From: Acidobacteriota bacterium
GTDB taxonomy: Bacteria; Acidobacteriota; Terriglobia; Terriglobales; Acidobacteriaceae
Reading direction: 5' to 3'
NCBI GenBank assembly: GCA_003225655.1
Contig: QIAW01000124.1
Location: 1-29,359, forward strand
Length of the DNA stretch: 29,359 bases
The translations under genes and the position numbers were made by a program. The notes below the pieces were generated by a model. That model was not told where the DNA came from and did not search any database. It was given only the letters and a program-made list of their open reading frames with translations. This document shows, piece by piece, positions 10,152 through 16,898 of this stretch (the stretch's first letter is position 1; each line of letters opens with the position of its first letter).

Positions 10152-11777
10152 CTACACTGCAGCAGCTTCGCGGTACTCGCGGAATGCCGGAGCTTCCTGA
10201 CGGAAGACAAACTCGGGATATCCAAGCTGGCCCATTTCAGGAATATCCAAGCCTGCCATCTCGGTTTCCGCGGAAACCCGGTGGCCGACAAAGTACTCAA
10301 GCACCATGTTCAGAACGAAGCTGAAGGTGAAAACGAAACCCAGCAAAGTGGAGATTCCTACGAGTTGGGCAGCAAGCTGACTGGCATCTCCGTAGAAGAG
10401 GCCGGTCACCGAACCGGTGACACCGTTCCAGCTTCCTCCGTAGTTGCTGGTGCCATCGGCAAAGAGACCGACCGATAACACACCCCACAGGCCGTTGGCC
10501 CCGTGCACAGAAATAGCGCCGACGGGATCATCTATCTTCAAGACGTTTTCCAAAAAGGCCACGCTGAGGCAAACCAGCACGCCGGCGATGACCAGACCGG
10601 CTAGCAGTCCGTTGCCGCTCATGGAAGCGTCCGGCTTACCCTTCAGAGCCCACATGTAGAGGATCGCGCCGAAAGTACCAGTGCAACCGGCCAGCATGGT
10701 GTTGACTGCAATGGAGCCAATACGCAGGGCGCCGTTTCCGGAGGCTCCCAGAGTGCTGCCGGGATTGAATCCAAACCAGCCGAAGGCCAGGATGAAGCAG
10801 CCGATCAACACGGCGGAAATATCGTGCCCAATAATCGGATTGCTCGAGCCGTCGCGATTGAACTTGCCGATGCGCGGACCGATGATCAGACACACCGCCA
10901 AGGCGGTAATCCCGCCGACTGCGTGTACTACGCCCGAGCCGGCAAAATCACAATATCCTTTACCTAGACCCAGATTGGTTCCCAGTTGCGAGAGCCAGCC
11001 ACCGCCCCAGGCCCAGTTGCCGAATAGCGGGTAGGTAAATGCGCCCATCAGTACGGAAGAAACAGCGAAGGTCAGGAATTTCCAGCGCTCGGCGCAGGCG
11101 CCGGTAACGATGGTGAGGGCCGTATCCATAAACACCATCTGGAAGAGGAACAGCACCATCACAGCGACATCATAGCTGTGTCCTGCCAGGAACATTCCAC
11201 TCTGGCCGAAGAGGCCCCAAGTTTTGTCGAACAAACTAAATGTATGTTCCGGGGTCAGGGAAGCAGTGCCGCCTAGATTGGCAATCCCAGATGACCCGCC
11301 CATTTGAATAGCGAAGCCGATCAGCCAGTAGGCAAGCAGACCGCAGCCGTACACGAAGAAGTTCATCATGTAGGTGTGATTTGCGTTCTTCACCCGGCAC
11401 AGGCCCGCTTCCACCATGGCAAAGCCGGCCTGCATGAACATGACCAGAAAGCCGGTAATGAGCGTCCAAACAAAGTTGATGGCAACCTTGTTTTGCCCTA
11501 CCTGGTTGGCAACATCGGGAAGGGTAACGCCGGCTTTGGAATCCGCCGGCGGGACATCGTTGATGGTGCCGGTTATCGTGCCACCAGGGTCGCCCTTGGC
11601 CAAATCTGCGGCAGCGGGCGCTTTGGAGGCAGCATCCTTGAGTTCAGCCGCCGAGGCTGAAACCGCCGGCGCCGGGGCCGCGGCCGCAGGAGCCGGCGCT
11701 GCCGCTGTCTGCGCCATGGCCCCCATGGTCAAGCCGACCATAAGAATTAAAAGACTTAGACATCGAATTGATTTCAT
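10152..11777 (-). CDS. amt: Ammonium transporter Amt (copy 1, 541 aa) with signal peptide and Ala/Pro-rich N-terminal extension; apparent ~19-aa internal deletion
   Basis: FMQAGFAMVEAG, DFAGSGVVH, GWFGFNPGS, DDPVGAISVH (twin His kept), C-terminal GLDIPEMG. GGAGCAGAGG RBS before ATG 11777. Confidence 0.95.
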   Translation of the reverse strand: MKSIRCLSLLILMVGLTMGAMAQTAAAPAPAAAAPAPAVSASAAELKDAASKAPAAADLAKGDPGGTITGTINDVPPADSKAGVTLPDVANQVGQNKVAINFVWTLITGFLVMFMQAGFAMVEAGLCRVKNANHTYMMNFFVYGCGLLAYWLIGFAIQMGGSSGIANLGGTASLTPEHTFSLFDKTWGLFGQSGMFLAGHSYDVAVMVLFLFQMVFMDTALTIVTGACAERWKFLTFAVSSVLMGAFTYPLFGNWAWGGGWLSQLGTNLGLGKGYCDFAGSGVVHAVGGITALAVCLIIGPRIGKFNRDGSSNPIIGHDISAVLIGCFILAFGWFGFNPGSTLGASGNGALRIGSIAVNTMLAGCTGTFGAILYMWALKGKPDASMSGNGLLAGLVIAGVLVCLSVAFLENVLKIDDPVGAISVHGANGLWGVLSVGLFADGTSNYGGSWNGVTGSVTGLFYGDASQLAAQLVGISTLLGFVFTFSFVLNMVLEYFVGHRVSAETEMAGLDIPEMGQLGYPEFVFRQEAPAFREYREAAAV

Positions 11778-11832
11778 TTCCTCTGCTCCATAGTGTGAAT
11801 TTTGGTTGCGCTGAGCTGTTGCGACTGGCGCA

Positions 11833-12222
11833 TCATGCCTTCCATATAGCGTTCTTGTTAAAAGCCGCGGGTAGCACGTAGAGCATGCCAAGCAGGCTCA
11901 CTGCGATGCCCGCCAGGGCCGCAATAATGCGTCCGCTGGTGCTGGTGGTGAGGTGCATGCCGAAGAGAGTCAACACCCAGCCCAGGCAGGCGAGCAAGGC
12001 GCCAAGCGCTTTCATTCCGCCTGCTCCCGCTTTTTGCGCCGTTGTTCCTTCGGCGGGCTTGATCTTCAAGAACCCAAACAGGCTCGCCAGAAAAACCACG
12101 ACTCCCACCAGCGCGACCACCTTGCCCATGCCGGTAGCAAGATACGCGATGCCGGCACATGCGATTGTCAGTCCCGCCAGAAATAGAGTGAAAAAACTTC
12201 CTTGCGACTTACTTGCCGCCAT
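11833..12222 (-). CDS. Hypothetical four-TM membrane protein (129 aa)
   Basis: Strong RBS GGAGGAGG, four hydrophobic segments, lies directly upstream of amt1. Confidence 0.8.
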   Translation of the reverse strand: MAASKSQGSFFTLFLAGLTIACAGIAYLATGMGKVVALVGVVVFLASLFGFLKIKPAEGTTAQKAGAGGMKALGALLACLGWVLTLFGMHLTTSTSGRIIAALAGIAVSLLGMLYVLPAAFNKNAIWKA

Positions 12223-12266
12223 AAAACCTCCTCCTTGGCCCGTATGGGCCGTTTCCTAAATTAAAT

Positions 12267-12731
12267 TTAAATTGCGTACTCTTCTGGTTTCAGTACTTCC
12301 AGTACTCCGTTACCCATCCAGAAGTGAAGCCCGCACAATCTGGCTTGCATCGCTAGGGAACGAACACTCCACGAAACCTGATCTTCGCGGTTGACGGTGC
12401 CGGCAATAATCAGTTCGGGAGGCTCGCGCACCGGCTGGCGGTAGACGCGGAATATCGCGTTATCAACCCCGGGCAATGCGCAGAACAGAAGCTCACGTAC
12501 TGCCATTGCGTCTTTTAACGCCTGAAGCGAAGCGTTGTGCTCGCCAATCGCCGGCGGCAAATCCTTGTCCCACTCATCGGCAGGACGCGCCATCCAATCG
12601 CACTCCACCTGGTTCTCTCGCAATTGCAGCCGCAACAGGCGCAGCGGAGCGCGCGACAGCTCCCCAAACCGCATCCCTATCCGCAACCCGCGAACGAAGT
12701 AACCGAGTTCCCACAAGCGCTTCATCTTCAT
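12267..12731 (-). CDS. Hypothetical soluble protein (154 aa)
   Basis: Fills the gap in the operon, has an ATGA overlap with the upstream gene and a plausible alpha/beta composition; no family recognised. Confidence 0.7.
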   Translation of the reverse strand: MKMKRLWELGYFVRGLRIGMRFGELSRAPLRLLRLQLRENQVECDWMARPADEWDKDLPPAIGEHNASLQALKDAMAVRELLFCALPGVDNAIFRVYRQPVREPPELIIAGTVNREDQVSWSVRSLAMQARLCGLHFWMGNGVLEVLKPEEYAI

Positions 12732-13036
12732 CGGCTATGAACGCCTCCATCAACTTCACGCCGGGCGGGTAGCGCAAGAAACACCAGAAATTGCAATAAG
12801 ATCGTGACTTCCAAAATCAAAGGCTGCGTTGATTGCAGCCGCAATACCAGCACCAGCGCGACCATGGCGAACCACTGCCAGCGCGAGCGGCGCAACCTTT
12901 CCCAGCGGCCTGGAAGGTGGAAGATGTTGCTCAAAGTTATCTTCTGATCGGGAGGGAAGGGTCCATGCGCAGTAATGCAACTGACCGCGAAAAATCCCGC
13001 GAGTAACAACTCCACTAAAATCATCATCTGCTGCAT
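12728..13036 (-). CDS. Hypothetical membrane protein (about 102 aa, 2-3 TM)
   Basis: CAGGAG RBS before ATG 13036; hydrophobic segments flank WERLRRSRWQW; ATGA overlap with the next gene. Confidence 0.7.
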   Translation of the reverse strand: MQQMMILVELLLAGFFAVSCITAHGPFPPDQKITLSNIFHLPGRWERLRRSRWQWFAMVALVLVLRLQSTQPLILEVTILLQFLVFLALPARREVDGGVHSR

Positions 13037-13110
13037 CCCCGACTCCTGAAACTTGCTGGTCAATCAATTGAAATAGTGCGTATACACTTCCACGCCTTCG
13101 GGCTTTAGCT

Positions 13111-13267
13111 GGCGGAAGACAAAAACACCCCCGCTTTCTGCCGCACAGGACCAATTCCTTGGCTCGTCTTCGAGCGCCTTGTAGTTATGAGTTGGGCACA
13201 GCGTCGTGCCCTAAGAGACCTCTCTGAGGTGGAAGAGAGGCAAGCTGCGATCCTCTAAAATGTTGGT
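13111..13267 (-). promoter_or_regulatory. Structured 5' leader B: three hairpins, ANTAR-target-like
   Basis: P0 stem CCTCTCT/AGAGAGG (13219-13240), P1 GGGCAC-GACGCT-GTGCCC (13194-13211), P2 GCTC-GAAGAC-GAGC (13162-13175), U5 tract (13121-13125). Same spacing as leader A. Confidence 0.7.
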
Positions 13268-13286
13268 AGGCGATTCTGGCGGTGTT

Positions 13287-13340
13287 GACTCAAAAAGTCC
13301 AATTGAAATTTTTGATAGCGGGAATTAGATATCCTAATCA
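13287..13340 (-). promoter_or_regulatory. Conserved promoter/operator block, copy B
   Basis: 51/54 identical to 16050-16103; contains the 26-bp palindrome TCAAAAA-N12-TTTTTGA and ATTAG-N5-CTAAT. Confidence 0.8.
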
Positions 13341-13675
13341 GAGCTGGAAATAAGACTTGAAAAATGAGGCAGATCTACGGTAATCATCTTATTCCTCCCA
13401 CTTTTCCCGTCCGTACCAGGTGGCAGATTCATGTCCGGTACTGGTTTGATGGATTCCTTGGGAGGAGAATCTGTATTTGAACTTTTCGATTCAAATAAAA
13501 CCATGAGAAGCCGATAGGCAGTAATGGGAATCACAGTGAAGACGCAGCCGGCGACTCCAATAACAAATATTGCTTCAGCAGTCTGATCAGCAATCGTATG
13601 AAAGTGTTCAAAATGTGCAAAGAACCGGCGACCGGAGGCGCGTGAGAGCAGGAACCGAATCACATTTACATTCAT
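13334..13675 (-). CDS. Small membrane protein of unknown family, paralog B (up to 113 aa; start uncertain)
   Basis: Core FVIGVAGCVFTVIPITAYRLLMVLFE is paralogous to 7677-7934; lies directly downstream of glnK. Confidence 0.75.
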   Translation of the reverse strand: MNVNVIRFLLSRASGRRFFAHFEHFHTIADQTAEAIFVIGVAGCVFTVIPITAYRLLMVLFESKSSNTDSPPKESIKPVPDMNLPPGTDGKSGRNKMITVDLPHFSSLISSSD

Positions 13676-13736
13676 AATCGACTGACAAAATATCCACACA
13701 CTTGCTCGGCGCTCCTCCGGTCTTTCGGTGGATCGG

Positions 13737-14075
13737 TCAAAGCGCGGAAACTCCCCGCTCCTGGCTGCGGATGCGAATCGCCTCATCCACTTTGTAGAGG
13801 AAGATCTTCCCGTCGCCGATCTTGCCGGTCGAGGCGGTTTTGATGATAGTGTCAACGGCCTCGTTCACAAGCTTATCGTCTAGCACCAGTTCGACTTTGA
13901 TCTTCGGCAGGAGATCAACCTTGTATTCATTGCCGCGATAAGCTTCGGTGTGTCCCTTTTGCCGTCCGTGGCCGCGGACCTCTGACACTGTCATTCCCTC
14001 AACACCGAGCGCGATCAGGGCTTCTTTGACCATCTCAAACTTGGTCGGTTGAATAATGGCTTCAAGTTTTGTCAT
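13737..14075 (-). CDS. glnK: P-II nitrogen regulatory protein (112 aa)
   Basis: EAIIQP, GMTVSEVRGHGRQKG, T-loop YRGNEY (Tyr51 equivalent), TGKIGDGKIF, AIRIR. GGAG RBS; adjacent to amt, hence glnK rather than glnB. Confidence 0.95.
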   Translation of the reverse strand: MTKLEAIIQPTKFEMVKEALIALGVEGMTVSEVRGHGRQKGHTEAYRGNEYKVDLLPKIKVELVLDDKLVNEAVDTIIKTASTGKIGDGKIFLYKVDEAIRIRSQERGVSAL

Positions 14076-14108
14076 CTTTTTTCTCCAGGTGAGTTGTCGA
14101 ACCAACGG

Positions 14109-14138
14109 CAGGAGGCAGAGAGCTTTCTCTGCCTCCTG
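14109..14138 (-). other. 13-bp perfect intercistronic hairpin between amt2 and glnK
   Basis: CAGGAGGCAGAGA-GCTT-TCTCTGCCTCCTG; no U-tract on the transcribed strand. Confidence 0.75.
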
Positions 14139-14143
14139 GATGG

Positions 14144-15754
14144 TTACGTGGTTATCTTTTCGGTGTGCGAGGTGGTCTTGGTAGCCATCGCGTGTTGTTC
14201 TGCCATGCCTTTCGGCATAGCCAGTGACGAGATGACGTATTCCGGATAAGCCGAGATACCATGCTCGTGCAGATCGAGGCCATACAATTCGCCTTCTTCC
14301 GATACCCGCAGCGTGCCGGTTGCATTAACGGCATACATGACCGCCATGGCGACGGCGAAGGTGGCAAGCGTGATGACTGCGCTGCCAATGGCCTGAGCTG
14401 CGAGCACTTGCGTACCACCGCCATAGAAGAGACCTTTCAACGGGGCGGAGTTGTCGGGTGAAACCGGTCCGGTTGCACCATACTTGCCGCAGGCAAACAG
14501 CCCGAGTGATAACGTTCCCCAGATGCCGCAGAAACCATGAACGGGAACGGCGCCGATGGGATCATCAATGCGCAGCCATTCCAGCAATTCAACCCCAAGA
14601 ACCACGAGAACACCGGCAATGCCACCCAGGAGAATGGCGCCCGTGGGGCTGACCCAGTAGCAGGGACAGGTGATGGCAACTAGTCCAGCGAGGAAGCCGT
14701 TTGTAGTAAAGCCAGCGTCCCATTTTTTGGATGACATGTAAGCCCAGAACATGGCGGTCAATCCGGCCGCGCATGCTGCCAGAGTGGTGTTGGCCGCGAC
14801 CCGGCCGATGCCTTCAAAATCCATTGCCGAGAGTGTGCTGCCAGGGTTGAAGCCATACCAGCCGAACCAAAGAATCAGACCGCCGCTGACAGCGATGGTC
14901 AGATCGTGCGGCAGCATAGGAGCGCCACCGTCGCGTTTGAATTTGCGGCCCAGGCGCGGACCAAGAACGATGGAGCCCGCCAGTGCAATGAAACCACCAA
15001 TGGTGTGCACGACCGTGGACCCCGCAAAATCATGGAAGCCCATTCCCAAAGAAGGGAAGAAGTGACCGTCGCTGCCCATCAAGGCAAGCCAGCCATCCGG
15101 CCCCCACGCCCAGTGGCCGATAATTGGATAAATAAAACCGGAAACGGCGAGACTGTAAAGCAGGTCGCCGACGAAGCCGGTGCGTCCGATCATCGCGCCT
15201 GAGGTGATGGTTGAGCAGGTGTCGGCAAAGGCAAACTGGAATATCCAGACCGCAAGAAATGCGACGCCTGTAGTCTCATAGGTAGCCGGCGCGTCTTTGA
15301 GGAAGAACCAGTGATGACCGATGAAGCCGTTGCCGTGGCTGAACATGAAAGCGAAGCCGATGGCATAGAAGAGAATGCCGCAAAGACATGTATCGACGAC
15401 GCATTCCATGAGGACGTTTACGGTCTCACGCGAACGGCAAAAGCCGGCCTCAAGCATGGTGAATCCGACCTGCATGCCGAAGACCAGAAAAGCGGCGATC
15501 AGAGTCCAGGCAGTGTTGACCGGATTGACGACGTCGGCAGCTTTGACCTCCGGGCCGCTATCGGCGTAAACGTGAGCAAAAAAGAGGCCCGAAACGGCCG
15601 CCATGATCAGCAGCACCAAGGCCAGTCCCAGGGCCTTGCCGGCAAAGACGGTTTTCGCATACCGGCGCCACTCCGGATCACGCATGCGGACGGACAAGCG
15701 CGAAAACTTTTGCGATAGAGACAATTTCTTCCCTTCGTGCACAATTGCAGACAT
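14144..15754 (-). CDS. amt: Ammonium transporter Amt (copy 2, 536 aa)
   Basis: GMQVGFTMLEAG, DFAGSTVVH, GWYGFNPGS, GLVAITCP, DDPIGAVPVH, GLDLHEHG; AAGGAG RBS. Confidence 0.96.
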   Translation of the reverse strand: MSAIVHEGKKLSLSQKFSRLSVRMRDPEWRRYAKTVFAGKALGLALVLLIMAAVSGLFFAHVYADSGPEVKAADVVNPVNTAWTLIAAFLVFGMQVGFTMLEAGFCRSRETVNVLMECVVDTCLCGILFYAIGFAFMFSHGNGFIGHHWFFLKDAPATYETTGVAFLAVWIFQFAFADTCSTITSGAMIGRTGFVGDLLYSLAVSGFIYPIIGHWAWGPDGWLALMGSDGHFFPSLGMGFHDFAGSTVVHTIGGFIALAGSIVLGPRLGRKFKRDGGAPMLPHDLTIAVSGGLILWFGWYGFNPGSTLSAMDFEGIGRVAANTTLAACAAGLTAMFWAYMSSKKWDAGFTTNGFLAGLVAITCPCYWVSPTGAILLGGIAGVLVVLGVELLEWLRIDDPIGAVPVHGFCGIWGTLSLGLFACGKYGATGPVSPDNSAPLKGLFYGGGTQVLAAQAIGSAVITLATFAVAMAVMYAVNATGTLRVSEEGELYGLDLHEHGISAYPEYVISSLAMPKGMAEQHAMATKTTSHTEKITT

Positions 15755-15877
15755 TCATTAACTCCTTCATGAATAGAAGATTTTTAATCGGGTTCAGCAG
15801 TGGCTCTTTACACCAAAAGCGGAACAACAAAACTCAGCACGGCAGCGTAGAAAGCCCGGCTCAAGCCAACGGCTAGA

Positions 15878-16030
15878 GACACAAAAACGCAACGGTTCGC
15901 TACCGTACAGGGACTAACTTGCCGGCTCGCCTTTGAGCCTGATATTTCTATGATTTCGGCACCGCGTCGTGCCCGAGAAGCGCCTCTGCTGGAGGAGAGG
16001 CCAGACTGCAGGGTTTCTGCAACTGTTGGT
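15878..16030 (-). promoter_or_regulatory. Structured 5' leader A: three hairpins, ANTAR-target-like
   Basis: P0 stem GCCTCT/AGAGGC (15982-16001), P1 GGCAC-GACGCG-GTGCC (15958-15973), P2 GGCTC-AAAGGC-GAGCC (15924-15939, canonical A1/G4 hexaloop), U5 tract (15883-15887). Confidence 0.75.
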
Positions 16031-16049
16031 CAACTATTCTCTATACATC

Positions 16050-16103
16050 GACTCAAAAAGTCCAATTGAAATTTTTGATAGAGGGAATTAGATCCCCTAA
16101 TCA
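16050..16103 (-). promoter_or_regulatory. Conserved promoter/operator block, copy A
   Basis: The first 32 bp are identical to 13287-13318; 51/54 identity overall. Confidence 0.8.
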
Positions 16104-16181
16104 AAATTCAAAACGAACAACAAAACCGGACCACTGCAAACGAAATGCAGCAGCCCGGTGCCTCGTGTACTGGTACAACTG

Positions 16182-16898
16182 TTAAGAACCTTGTTTTACG
16201 GCATCGCTCAACACAATGGCATCGGCAATTTCTTTCATGGATTTACGCCGCTGCTGGCTCTGGCGTTGCAGAATCTTGTAGGCCTCTGGCTCAGCGATCC
16301 TCAGATCCCGCTGCAGAATTGCCTTGGCGCGTTCTACGAGCTTGCGGGTTTCCAGTTGCTCGGAGAGCTGCGAGTTTTCGCTCTCCAGCCGTGCCATCTC
16401 GATCTCGGCGCCCACCAGGAAGCCGATGGTCGAAACCAGGCGGATTTCACGTTGACTGTAGGGATGGGGCGCGCGGTTCTGCAGGTTAATCACGCCTACC
16501 AGCCGCCCGCGGCTGAGCACAGGAACGGAGAGGAATGCCGCAAAGCGGTCTTCCGGCAGTTCATTAAAAAATTGAAAACGTGAATCAGCGGAGGCATTTT
16601 CTGGCACGGCGACCGGCTGCCGATGTTCTGCGACCCAGCCGGTAATGCCTTGTCCCAGCTTCAACTTCAATCGGTCCACAGTTTCGGGATGTGGATTCTT
16701 GGAGGCGCGCAGAACAAGCTCGTCACTCTCCAGCACATAGATGAAGCATGAATCGCACTTCACCACGGAGGTCACAAATTCGACCACATCGGCCAGCACA
16801 TCGTGCAACGGCTCGGCCGCCGTCCGGTTGGCCATGCGCTGCAGGAAGGCGGTCTCAGAATCCTCATTCAACATATAGGTTGACATACCATTCGACAT
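16182..16898 (-). CDS. GAF plus ANTAR domain RNA-binding antiterminator
   Basis: GAF: LGQGITGWVAEHRQP, EDRFAAFLSVPV, LVGVINLQN. Coiled coil, then ANTAR: QLETRKLVERAKAILQRDLRIAEPEAYKILQRQSQQRRKSMKEIADAIV. No receiver domain. Confidence 0.92.
   Translation of the reverse strand: MSNGMSTYMLNEDSETAFLQRMANRTAAEPLHDVLADVVEFVTSVVKCDSCFIYVLESDELVLRASKNPHPETVDRLKLKLGQGITGWVAEHRQPVAVPENASADSRFQFFNELPEDRFAAFLSVPVLSRGRLVGVINLQNRAPHPYSQREIRLVSTIGFLVGAEIEMARLESENSQLSEQLETRKLVERAKAILQRDLRIAEPEAYKILQRQSQQRRKSMKEIADAIVLSDAVKQGS

What the first reader, a model, noticed from the sequence alone, without database searches (positions are those of the whole stretch)
13111..16030. Twin three-hairpin RNA leaders with ANTAR-target features upstream of both amt units
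On the transcribed strand both leaders show, in order: a CCTCT/AGAGG hairpin with an 8-nt loop; P1 GGCAC-GACGC(G/T)-GTGCC; a linker with AAxTCATA; P2 GCTC-(AAAGGC or GAAGAC)-GAGC; then GTTTTTGT about 36 nt later. The distance from P1 end to P2 loop is 23 nt in both. All four hexaloops have G at position 4; one is the canonical A1/G4, the others have G1. Established: ANTAR proteins bind dual hexaloop hairpins to relieve termination. A GAF-ANTAR gene sits directly upstream. In leader B, GTCTTCCGCC (13120-13111) can pair with the P2 segment GGCG...GAAGAC, an alternative fold that hides the loop. The extra P0 hairpin and G1 loops look like a non-canonical variant.
Basis: partly seen in the sequence, partly recalled or inferred. 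Interest (0 to 1): 0.85.

Follow-up and report, generated by a model that had tools for sequence, protein, structure and literature searches.

The report
ANTAR-type leader RNAs before ammonium transporters
Two related untranslated leaders in front of the two ammonium-transporter operons carry small hairpins of the type bound by ANTAR RNA-binding regulators, and this leader sits next to a GAF-ANTAR gene in many soil Acidobacteriaceae, so it is probably their nitrogen switch, though how it switches is not shown.

Summary
In detail: both leaders have P0, P1, P2 and GTTTTTGT at the stated coordinates. They are paralogues (74% identity), not chance.

Comparative data support an ANTAR-target RNA. 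I collected 49 distinct homologous leaders from Acidobacteriaceae genomes and soil metagenomes.
- A GAF-ANTAR gene of one distinct paralogue clade lies directly upstream in 46 of 49 leaders with enough upstream DNA.
- An amt operon follows where enough downstream DNA is held, with one exception (L043).
- The conserved core is P0 plus P1, 9-10 nt apart. Both are C-G-closed hexaloops, consensus G-A-Y-G-C-N, with G4 invariant.
- P0 shows compensatory changes at 8 of 9 pairs.

P0 is not an extra hairpin. It is the ancestral first hexaloop hairpin. In this genus its loop has decayed to 5-21 nt without G4. A new hexaloop hairpin, P2 (AANGRC), appears 18-20 nt after P1. One metagenomic leader has all three.

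The mechanism is unresolved. No conserved terminator overlaps P1 or P2, P1 is predicted to be stably folded, and the leaders show no excess pairing with the ribosome-binding site. The U-run and the alternative fold in leader B are not conserved.

ANTAR control of amt and P-II leaders is already known in Geobacter and Firmicutes, so this is a new variant of a known kind.

The parts
16182..16898 (-). GAF-ANTAR one-component regulator (238 aa), member of the leader-adjacent paralogue clade
   Evidence: Pfam GAF 1.1e-18 and ANTAR 5.6e-17. The GAF domain is nearest to the GAF of PtsP/EI-Ntr, PDB 3ci6, E 4.6e-20. The Tyr that stacks on G4 in EutV is conserved; the Met172 equivalent is Gln. The leader-adjacent (ADJ) clade is separated from stand-alone (SOLO) paralogues at 100/99 support.
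16125..16159 (-). Strong intrinsic terminator ending the regulator gene
   Evidence: 14-bp stem followed by TTTGTTGTT. It shows that leader A has its own promoter.
16036..16102 (-). Promoter block A: GATTAG...CTAAT palindrome, A/T-rich tract, -35 TTGGAC (16065-16060), 18-nt spacer, -10 GAGAAT (16041-16036). Predicted start near 16029.
   Evidence: Near-identical to block B. The -35, 18-nt spacer and CAnnAT -10 are conserved in 33 of 34 anchored homologous leaders while the spacer sequence varies.
15982..16001 (-). P0 of leader A (6 bp, 8-nt loop without G4)
   Evidence: Homologous P0 stems covary. Loop length is free in this genus.
15958..15973 (-). P1 of leader A: GGCAC[GACGCG]GUGCC
   Evidence: One compensatory variant, GACAC/GUGUC, occurs in L048.
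15924..15939 (-). P2 of leader A: GGCUC[AAAGGC]GAGCC, canonical A1/G4 hexaloop
   Evidence: Present at 18-20 nt after P1 in 6 of 6 leaders of this genus clade plus L224, against 4 of 44 others at scattered positions.
15881..15906 (-). Weak hairpin plus GUUUUUGU. Candidate attenuator of leader A, unproven.
   Evidence: 6 bp with 3 G-C pairs. About -5.5 kcal/mol. Not conserved outside the genus.
14144..15754 (-). amt1 (ammonium transporter, 536 aa)
   Evidence: Pfam PF00909, 1.4e-112.
13737..14075 (-). P-II (GlnK/GlnB) gene
   Evidence: Pfam PF00543, 5.4e-30. ATG read at 14075.
13273..13339 (-). Promoter block B: -35 TTGGAC (13302-13297), 18-nt spacer, -10 CAGAAT (13278-13273). Predicted start near 13266.
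13219..13240 (-). P0 of leader B (7 bp, 8-nt loop UCCACCUC containing no G)
13194..13211 (-). P1 of leader B: GGGCAC[GACGCU]GUGCCC
13162..13175 (-). P2 of leader B: GCUC[GAAGAC]GAGC
   Evidence: Predicted probability is only 0.01-0.09, because of a competing fold with 13120-13111.
13111..13148 (-). Weak hairpin, GUUUUUGU and GUCUUCCGCC of leader B (candidate attenuator or alternative partner of P2)
   Evidence: Not conserved in the orthologous leader L184.
10152..13036 (-). Operon behind leader B: three unknown proteins (B1 13036-12728, B2 12731-12267, B3 12222-11833) and amt2 (11891-10152)
   Evidence: amt2 Pfam PF00909, 2e-92; B1-B3 have no Pfam family. The same B1-B2-B3-amt2 or B2-amt1-P-II order follows the leader in most related loci.

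Best explanation
Both stretches are 5' leader RNAs of about 275 nt (A) and 230 nt (B). Each is transcribed from its own copy of a conserved sigma70-type promoter. Each carries binding hairpins for the GAF-ANTAR protein encoded directly upstream.

The recognised unit is a hairpin closed by a C-G pair with a six-base loop R-A-N-G-N-N. The fourth base, G, would stack on the conserved tyrosine of the ANTAR domain. A protein dimer needs two such hairpins. In most genera these are P0 and P1, 9-10 nt apart. In this genus P0 has lost its hexaloop, and P1 plus the new hairpin P2 (18-20 nt further on) would serve instead.

The GAF domain resembles the glutamine/2-oxoglutarate-sensing GAF of PtsP. It would report nitrogen status, and binding of the leader would raise expression of the amt operons. 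The most likely route is suppression of premature transcript loss within the long leader.

Shown here: the leader, its hairpins, their conservation and covariation, and the linkage to the regulator gene and to amt operons.

Inferred: that ANTAR is the ligand (about 0.75), what the GAF domain senses, the direction of control, and that the step controlled is termination (about 0.4).
For: Structure:
- P0 pairs are kept in 97.6% of cells, against 49-61% when the partner column is slid.
- 8 of 9 P0 pairs show changes on both sides, and 0 of 500 shuffles reach the observed values.
- Sense-strand U-G wobbles outnumber C-A/A-C mismatches 18 to 8.
- P1 has one compensatory variant, GACAC/GUGUC.

Loop signature:
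- P0 is a hexaloop in 41 of 42 leaders outside this genus, with G4 in 41 of 41 and R1 in 41 of 41. P0 was not part of any search pattern.
- P1 has G4 in 49 of 49.
- P0, P1 and P2 share the C-G closing pair and the R-A-N-G loop although their stems are unrelated.

Literature:
- G4 is the base that EutV contacts, and A1 makes no contact (PMC8934654).
- Closing pairs A-U and C-G matter in eutP (PMC3369931).

Linkage:
- GAF-ANTAR lies upstream on the same strand in 46 of 49 leaders.
- These regulators form one clade, separated from stand-alone paralogues at 100/99 support.
- amt operons follow wherever enough downstream DNA is held, except L043.

Turnover:
- P2 is present in 6 of 6 leaders of this genus clade, where the P0 loop is 5-21 nt. 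It appears in 4 of 44 others, at random positions. L224 has all three hexaloops.

Transcription:
- The conserved -35, 18-nt spacer and -10 lie 22-60 nt upstream of P0.

Protein:
- The Tyr164 equivalent is conserved.
- The GAF domain is nearest to PtsP GAF.
Against: - No binding or expression data exist. No metatranscriptome reads or contigs cover the locus.
- No conserved intrinsic terminator was found. Terminator-like sites occur in 23% of leaders against 16% of shuffles.
- P1 is predicted to be folded regardless of context (median probability 0.96), so nothing obvious competes with it.
- The consensus fold for this genus places the only U-run hairpin beside P2, not overlapping it, and its covariation term is unfavourable at +0.69.
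- The P1-P2 linker here (19-20 nt) is longer than the 5-12 nt tolerated in eut.
- Loop position 1 is G, not A, in three of the four hexaloops here.
- The residue matching EutV Met172, described as obligatory for RNA binding, is Gln.
- The P2 stem never varies in 7 examples, so its pairing is unproven.
- P1's invariance is partly an artefact of my search patterns.
- One genome (G090) has the leader but only the stand-alone paralogue.
Confidence: 0.65

Rival explanations
1. Same RNA and same ANTAR protein, but the step controlled is not intrinsic termination. The bound protein might block Rho loading, act processively on RNA polymerase, or protect the A/U-rich single-stranded stretch after P1 from an endonuclease (mRNA stability).
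For: Terminator-like sites are not enriched. P0 and P1 are predicted to be constitutively folded. A conserved A-rich, G-poor single-stranded stretch of 18-20 nt follows P1 in all clades. Leaders extend 92-373 nt beyond P1 with clade-specific sequence.
Against: No ANTAR protein is known to act this way. Nothing here points to a particular alternative. Acidobacterial terminators may simply escape the consensus scan, although the regulator gene's own terminator is canonical.
Confidence: 0.2
2. The hairpins are a protein-independent element or the site of some other factor (for example a 5' stabiliser or a small-RNA or ribosome-related element), and the neighbouring ANTAR gene is only a syntenic neighbour.
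For: P0 keeps its stem in this genus after losing the hexaloop, so the stem has some loop-independent value. G090 has the leader without an adjacent regulator.
Against: Three unrelated stems share one loop signature that matches the known ANTAR determinant. Adjacency holds in 46 of 49 leaders across different downstream operons. Gain of P2 coincides with loss of the P0 hexaloop, which suggests that two loops are required.
Confidence: 0.1
3. The conserved palindromes are DNA sites: an operator for a dimeric repressor, or P1 (GGCAC-N6-GTGCC) as a sigma54 -24/-12 promoter or an NtrC-like site.
For: P1 is a perfect 5-6 bp inverted repeat. It is almost invariant and resembles TGGCAC...TTGC. The genes are nitrogen genes.
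Against: The GG-to-GC spacing is 12, not 11 (read), and no TTGC is present. The asymmetric centre G-A-Y-G is conserved while position 6 is free. P0 changes sequence but keeps pairing, using U-G wobbles on the sense strand. The distance to the promoter varies from 22 to 60 nt, while the P0-P1 spacing is fixed.
Confidence: 0.05

Closest known systems
ANTAR-target dual-hexaloop RNA of EutV, NasR and AmiR (Ramesh et al. 2012, PMC3369931; Walshe et al. 2022, PMC8934654)
   Same: Two short hairpins with six-base loops. G at loop position 4. A C-G closing pair preceded by A-U in P1, as in eutP. Located in a 5' leader. The regulator gene lies next to the target. Nitrogen-related genes are controlled.
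   Different: Loop position 1 is mostly G. No terminator overlaps the second hairpin. Here the linker is 19-20 nt (P1-P2). The regulator is a one-component GAF-ANTAR with Gln in place of EutV Met172. Which hairpin carries a hexaloop differs between genera.
GnfK/GnfR antitermination at nifH, glnK and amtB leaders of Geobacter sulfurreducens (Ueki and Lovley 2010, PMC2995071)
   Same: An ANTAR regulator acting on amtB and glnK leaders. Its conserved site CAGGCAANGGCGCC, as I read it, holds a GGC[AANGGC]GCC hairpin. That loop is the same as P2 here (AAAGGC, AACGGC, AANGAC).
   Different: GnfR is a phosphorylated response regulator. Its site overlaps clear hairpin-plus-T-run terminators. It controls a regulon of several operons, whereas here there are one or two leaders per genome.
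Predicted ANTAR sites before amt and P-II genes in Desulfotomaculum acetoxidans and Clostridium thermocellum (Table S2 of PMC3369931)
   Same: The same gene class lies behind an ANTAR-type leader.
   Different: Those sites were selected for an overlapping terminator and for A1/G4 loops. That study lists no hits for its one acidobacterium (Solibacter).
Mycobacterial ANTAR RNAs (PMC8164766; bioRxiv 10.1101/660928)
   Same: Dual hairpins without an obligatory terminator.
   Different: Those overlap the ribosome-binding site or start codon and repress translation. Here the hairpins lie 92-373 nt upstream of the start codon and show no excess pairing with the ribosome-binding site (median z 0.26).

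Membership tests
ANTAR-target dual-hairpin RNA | Two stem-loops, each with at least 3 base pairs | tested here: met
   P1 has 5-6 bp and P2 has 4-5 bp in both leaders. P0 (7-10 bp) plus P1 in related genera.
ANTAR-target dual-hairpin RNA | Hexanucleotide terminal loops | tested here: met
   P1 and P2 have 6-nt loops in both leaders. P0 has an 8-nt loop here but a 6-nt loop in 41 of 42 leaders of other genera.
ANTAR-target dual-hairpin RNA | G at loop position 4 | tested here: met
   4 of 4 loops here. P0 41 of 41, P1 49 of 49 and P2 7 of 7 across homologues. For P1 this was partly fixed by the search patterns.
ANTAR-target dual-hairpin RNA | A at loop position 1 | tested here: not met
   1 of 4 loops here. 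Across homologues, P0 has A in 4 of 41, P1 in 1 of 49 and P2 in 5 of 7. Position 1 is always a purine. A1 makes no protein contact in EutV.
ANTAR-target dual-hairpin RNA | Conserved closing base pairs of the loop | tested here: met
   A C-G pair closes P0, P1 and P2 throughout. P1 has A-U then C-G, as in eutP P1.
ANTAR-target dual-hairpin RNA | Short linker between the two hairpins (5-12 nt in eut; 3 or 14 nt impair function) | tested here: inconclusive
   P0-P1 is 8-11 nt in 48 of 49 leaders. P1-P2 in this genus is 18-20 nt. The tolerance of this protein is unknown.
ANTAR-target dual-hairpin RNA | The second hairpin is mutually exclusive with an intrinsic terminator | tested here: not met
   No overlap was found in the consensus fold. 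P1 median probability is 0.96. Terminator-like sites occur in 23% of leaders against 16% of shuffles. Only the G003-type leader offers a 10-bp alternative between the P1 5' strand and the stretch before the U-run.
ANTAR-target dual-hairpin RNA | An ANTAR protein is encoded in the genome, typically nearby | tested here: met
   Directly upstream of leader A. Directly upstream in 46 of 49 homologous leaders.
ANTAR-target dual-hairpin RNA | Specific binding by the ANTAR domain | not testable with these tools
   Needs gel-shift or similar binding assays with purified protein.
Any curated Rfam family | Match to a covariance model | tested here: not met
   Nothing relevant was found, even at E up to 10, over 12500-16500.
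sigma54 promoter (for P1) | GG and GC elements 11 positions apart, TGGCAC-N5-TTGC | tested here: not met
   The spacing is 12 and the second element is GTGC (read).

The most novel reading that the evidence does not exclude
The GAF-ANTAR protein works here without any terminator/antiterminator competition. The hexaloop hairpins would be constitutively folded landing pads. From them the metabolite-loaded protein would make RNA polymerase resistant to termination, block Rho, or protect the transcript. This would be a new mode of action for the ANTAR domain. It would also be the first described nitrogen-sensing circuit of Acidobacteria: a PtsP-like GAF domain coupled directly to RNA binding.
Probability: 0.25. 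Interest if true: 0.75.

Novelty: new variant of a known kind. Interest (0 to 1): 0.55.

Why it matters
I know of no described nitrogen-control circuit in Acidobacteria, a dominant soil phylum, and my literature searches found none for amt genes. This locus offers a compact, testable one: a single protein with a PtsP-like GAF sensor and an RNA-binding output, placed next to its leader and to the ammonium transporters it would control.

The family of 49 leaders also shows how a two-hairpin protein site evolves. One hairpin loses its loop while a new one arises on the other side of the fixed hairpin, and one lineage carries all three.

The lack of a conserved terminator, and Gln in place of the Met that EutV needs, suggest that the rules learned from EutV do not cover all ANTAR systems.

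Tried and rejected
1. Rfam scan at a permissive threshold: no family matched.
2. Plain DNA search in 60 relatives: matches in the same genus only.
3. First covariance model, built on P1+P2: most hits at E > 1e-6 lay inside coding regions. The four extra hits in the window's own genome lie within long ORFs.
4. P1 pattern scan of all species: most hits were the nuoE codons for LCGTTPC in Alphaproteobacteria, which are false positives.
5. P1 as a sigma54 promoter: the spacing is off by one.
6. Leaders next to the stand-alone GAF-ANTAR paralogues, including the window genome's own second copy on contig C610: none was found downstream of 20 such genes. Nor was one found upstream of amt genes in four genomes that have only that paralogue.
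7. Translational control by pairing of the hairpin core with the ribosome-binding site: no excess over shuffles.
8. Conserved intrinsic terminator: not enriched. The consensus fold gave no covariation support.
10. RNA evidence: the three metatranscriptomes of a study holding the locus gave only four short pieces at 90-95% identity in the coding regions and none in the leaders.
11. Distribution: the leader was not found in 131 genomes of 12 other families of the class.
Full report
**What is in the window.** All features lie on the minus strand, in this order:
- a GAF-ANTAR gene (16898-16182; Pfam GAF 1e-18, ANTAR 6e-17) ending in a strong terminator (16159-16125);
- a promoter block and leader A;
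- amt1 (15754-14144) and a P-II gene (14075-13737);
- a small ORF;
- a second copy of the promoter block and leader B;
- three genes without a Pfam family (B1, B2, B3);
- amt2 (11891-10152).

The two leaders align at 74% identity over about 250 nt, preceded by a near-identical block of about 53 nt. They are therefore paralogues. Folding either leader alone is no better than shuffled sequence (z -0.5 and -0.9). No Rfam family matches.

**Finding relatives.** A DNA search found the leader only in two genomes of the same genus. A covariance model of P1+P2 picked up true homologues in other genera, and these showed that P2 was missing there. A second model, built on P0+P1 from four genera, matched 8 of 151 sampled genomes of the family. 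It matched none of 131 genomes from 12 other families of the class. One pattern scan of all species genomes and one of metagenomes added more. After removing coding-sequence hits, notably nuoE in Alphaproteobacteria, 49 distinct leaders remained. By their record titles, all come from Acidobacteriaceae/Terriglobales genomes or soil metagenomes. The family tallies include two unpublished genomes (G005, G028). No claim here rests on them.

**The conserved RNA.** Outside this genus, the element is P0, a linker of 8-11 nt containing AUUCUU, P1, and then an A-rich, G-poor single-stranded stretch.
- P0 is a 7-10 bp stem with a pyrimidine-rich 5' arm and a purine-rich 3' arm.
- 97.6% of P0 cells are paired, against 49-61% when partners are slid.
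- 8 of 9 P0 pairs show changes on both sides. No shuffle out of 500 reaches the observed values. L224 even has an unrelated stem, CCUGCUC/GAGCAGG.
- U-G wobbles on the sense strand outnumber C-A/A-C mismatches 18 to 8. This fits an RNA read on this strand.
- The P0 loop has six bases in 41 of 42 leaders, with G4 in 41 of 41, a purine at position 1 in 41 of 41 and A2 in 38 of 41. P0 was not part of any search pattern, so these counts are unbiased.
- The P1 loop is G-A-Y-G-N-N. Its stem is invariant apart from one compensatory GACAC/GUGUC, but my patterns fixed most of P1.
- P0, P1 and P2 have unrelated stems yet share the C-G closing pair and the R-A-N-G loop. This points to one loop-reading protein.

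**Hairpin turnover.** In the clade of this genus (window A and B, L009/L203, L010, L184, L214) the P0 stem is kept, but its loop is 5-21 nt and lacks the G4 signature. Exactly these leaders have P2, GCUC[AANGRC]GAGC, 18-20 nt after P1 (6 of 6). Among the others, 4 of 44 have some such hairpin at scattered positions, close to the 4% found in shuffles. L224 has hexaloops on P0, P1 and P2. The P2 stem never varies in the seven examples, so its pairing rests on position and loop pattern alone.

**Link to the regulator and to amt.** A GAF-ANTAR gene (58-87% identical) ends about 130-250 nt upstream, on the same strand, in 46 of 49 leaders with enough upstream DNA. The exceptions are leader B of this window, L044 (genome G090) and the rearranged L215.
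- These regulators form one clade, separated from stand-alone paralogues at 100/99 support.
- The stand-alone paralogue is present in about a third of the family. Twenty copies, including this genome's second copy on contig C610, have no leader downstream.
- Wherever enough downstream DNA is held, an amt operon follows the leader: amt1-P-II, B2-amt1-P-II or B1-B2-B3-amt2. The one exception, L043, showed none of these genes in 1.5 kb; its first ORF looks like an amino-acid permease by eye.
- Leader A has orthologues in G003 and G002, and leader B has one in L184. The two lineages therefore predate this species.

**Transcription.** A -35 (TTTGAC or TTGGAC), an 18-nt spacer of variable sequence and a CAnnAT -10 are conserved in 33 of 34 anchored leaders. 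They lie 22-60 nt upstream of P0. The hairpins are thus predicted to be transcribed, at a variable distance from the promoter but a fixed distance from each other. This argues against DNA operators. P1 resembles a sigma54 promoter, but its spacing is off by one.

**Comparison with known ANTAR systems.** The defining motif is two hairpins of at least 3 bp with hexaloops carrying A1 and G4. In eut the closing pairs are conserved and the linker is 5-12 nt. The second hairpin overlaps a terminator.
- G4 stacks on EutV Tyr164, and A1 makes no contact.
- Here G4, the hexaloops and the closing pairs are met. A1 is mostly G.
- The Tyr is conserved in the regulator, but the Met172 equivalent is Gln. 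In the stand-alone paralogue it is Arg.
- ANTAR control of amtB and glnK leaders is known in Geobacter. Read as a hairpin, its site contains the same loop, AANGGC, as P2. It was also predicted in Firmicutes.
- The GAF domain is nearest to the GAF of PtsP/EI-Ntr.

**Mechanism: what could not be shown.**
- P1 is predicted to be folded in nearly all contexts (median probability 0.96).
- Terminator-like sites within 130 nt after P1 occur in 23% of leaders against 16% of shuffles.
- The consensus fold for this genus puts an imperfect hairpin beside P2, ending before the U-run, with an unfavourable covariation term.
- P2 is thermodynamically marginal in several leaders (probability 0.01-0.4; 0.84 in A, 0.01 in B). 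The competing folds differ from leader to leader.
- Only the G003-type leader has a canonical-looking 10-bp alternative between the P1 5' strand and the stretch before the U-run.
- The hairpins lie 92-373 nt from the start codon and show no excess pairing with the ribosome-binding site.
- No RNA reads or contigs cover the leaders.

**Verdict.** This is a real, conserved leader RNA of the ANTAR-target type. It is specific to a subset of Acidobacteriaceae and is paired with a dedicated GAF-ANTAR regulator and with ammonium-transporter operons. The window is unusual in carrying two copies in tandem. I rate it a new variant of a known kind. The step that the protein controls is open.

Noticed in passing
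window 16036-16102 and 13273-13339: The duplicated promoter block is conserved across genera. It has an A/T-rich tract (ATAAAAAGTTTGAA), -35 TTKGAC, an 18-nt variable spacer and a CAnnAT -10, with GATTAG further upstream in several clades. This suggests a second layer of control at initiation by an unidentified DNA-binding factor.
   Followed up: partly
window 11833-13036 (B1, B2, B3): Three proteins without a Pfam family travel with the leader and amt genes in most related loci. B2 alone precedes amt1 in many of them, and B1-B2-B3 precede amt2. They are likely new accessory parts of ammonium uptake.
   Followed up: partly
G000 contig C610:1767-2468 (locus L245): A second GAF-ANTAR paralogue, 64% identical, belongs to a stand-alone clade present in about a third of the family. 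It has Arg at the EutV Met172 position and no leader beside it. Its RNA target is unknown.
   Followed up: partly
window 14109-14138: A perfect 13-bp inverted repeat (CAGGAGGCAGAGA...TCTCTGCCTCCTG) lies between amt1 and the P-II gene, with no U-run after it. It could be a processing or attenuation site within the operon.
   Followed up: no
loci L050, L055, L057 and many others: The P1 sequence CGGCACGACGCCGTGCC occurs in the coding sequence of nuoE (LCGTTPC) in many Alphaproteobacteria. This is a trap for pattern searches of this motif.
   Followed up: yes
locus L043 (genome G024): Here the regulator and leader precede none of the window's amt-operon genes. The first ORF looks like an amino-acid permease (read by eye, not checked against a family). 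The module can therefore be attached to another transporter.
   Followed up: no
locus L044 (genome G090) and L236: This 92%-complete genome has a B-type leader but only the stand-alone GAF-ANTAR paralogue, 1.8 Mb away. Either the paralogues can substitute for each other or the adjacent gene is missing from the assembly.
   Followed up: no
locus L215: A leader whose P0 5' half and promoter are replaced by unrelated sequence, while P1 and the downstream operon are intact. It is possibly a rearrangement that inactivates control.
   Followed up: no
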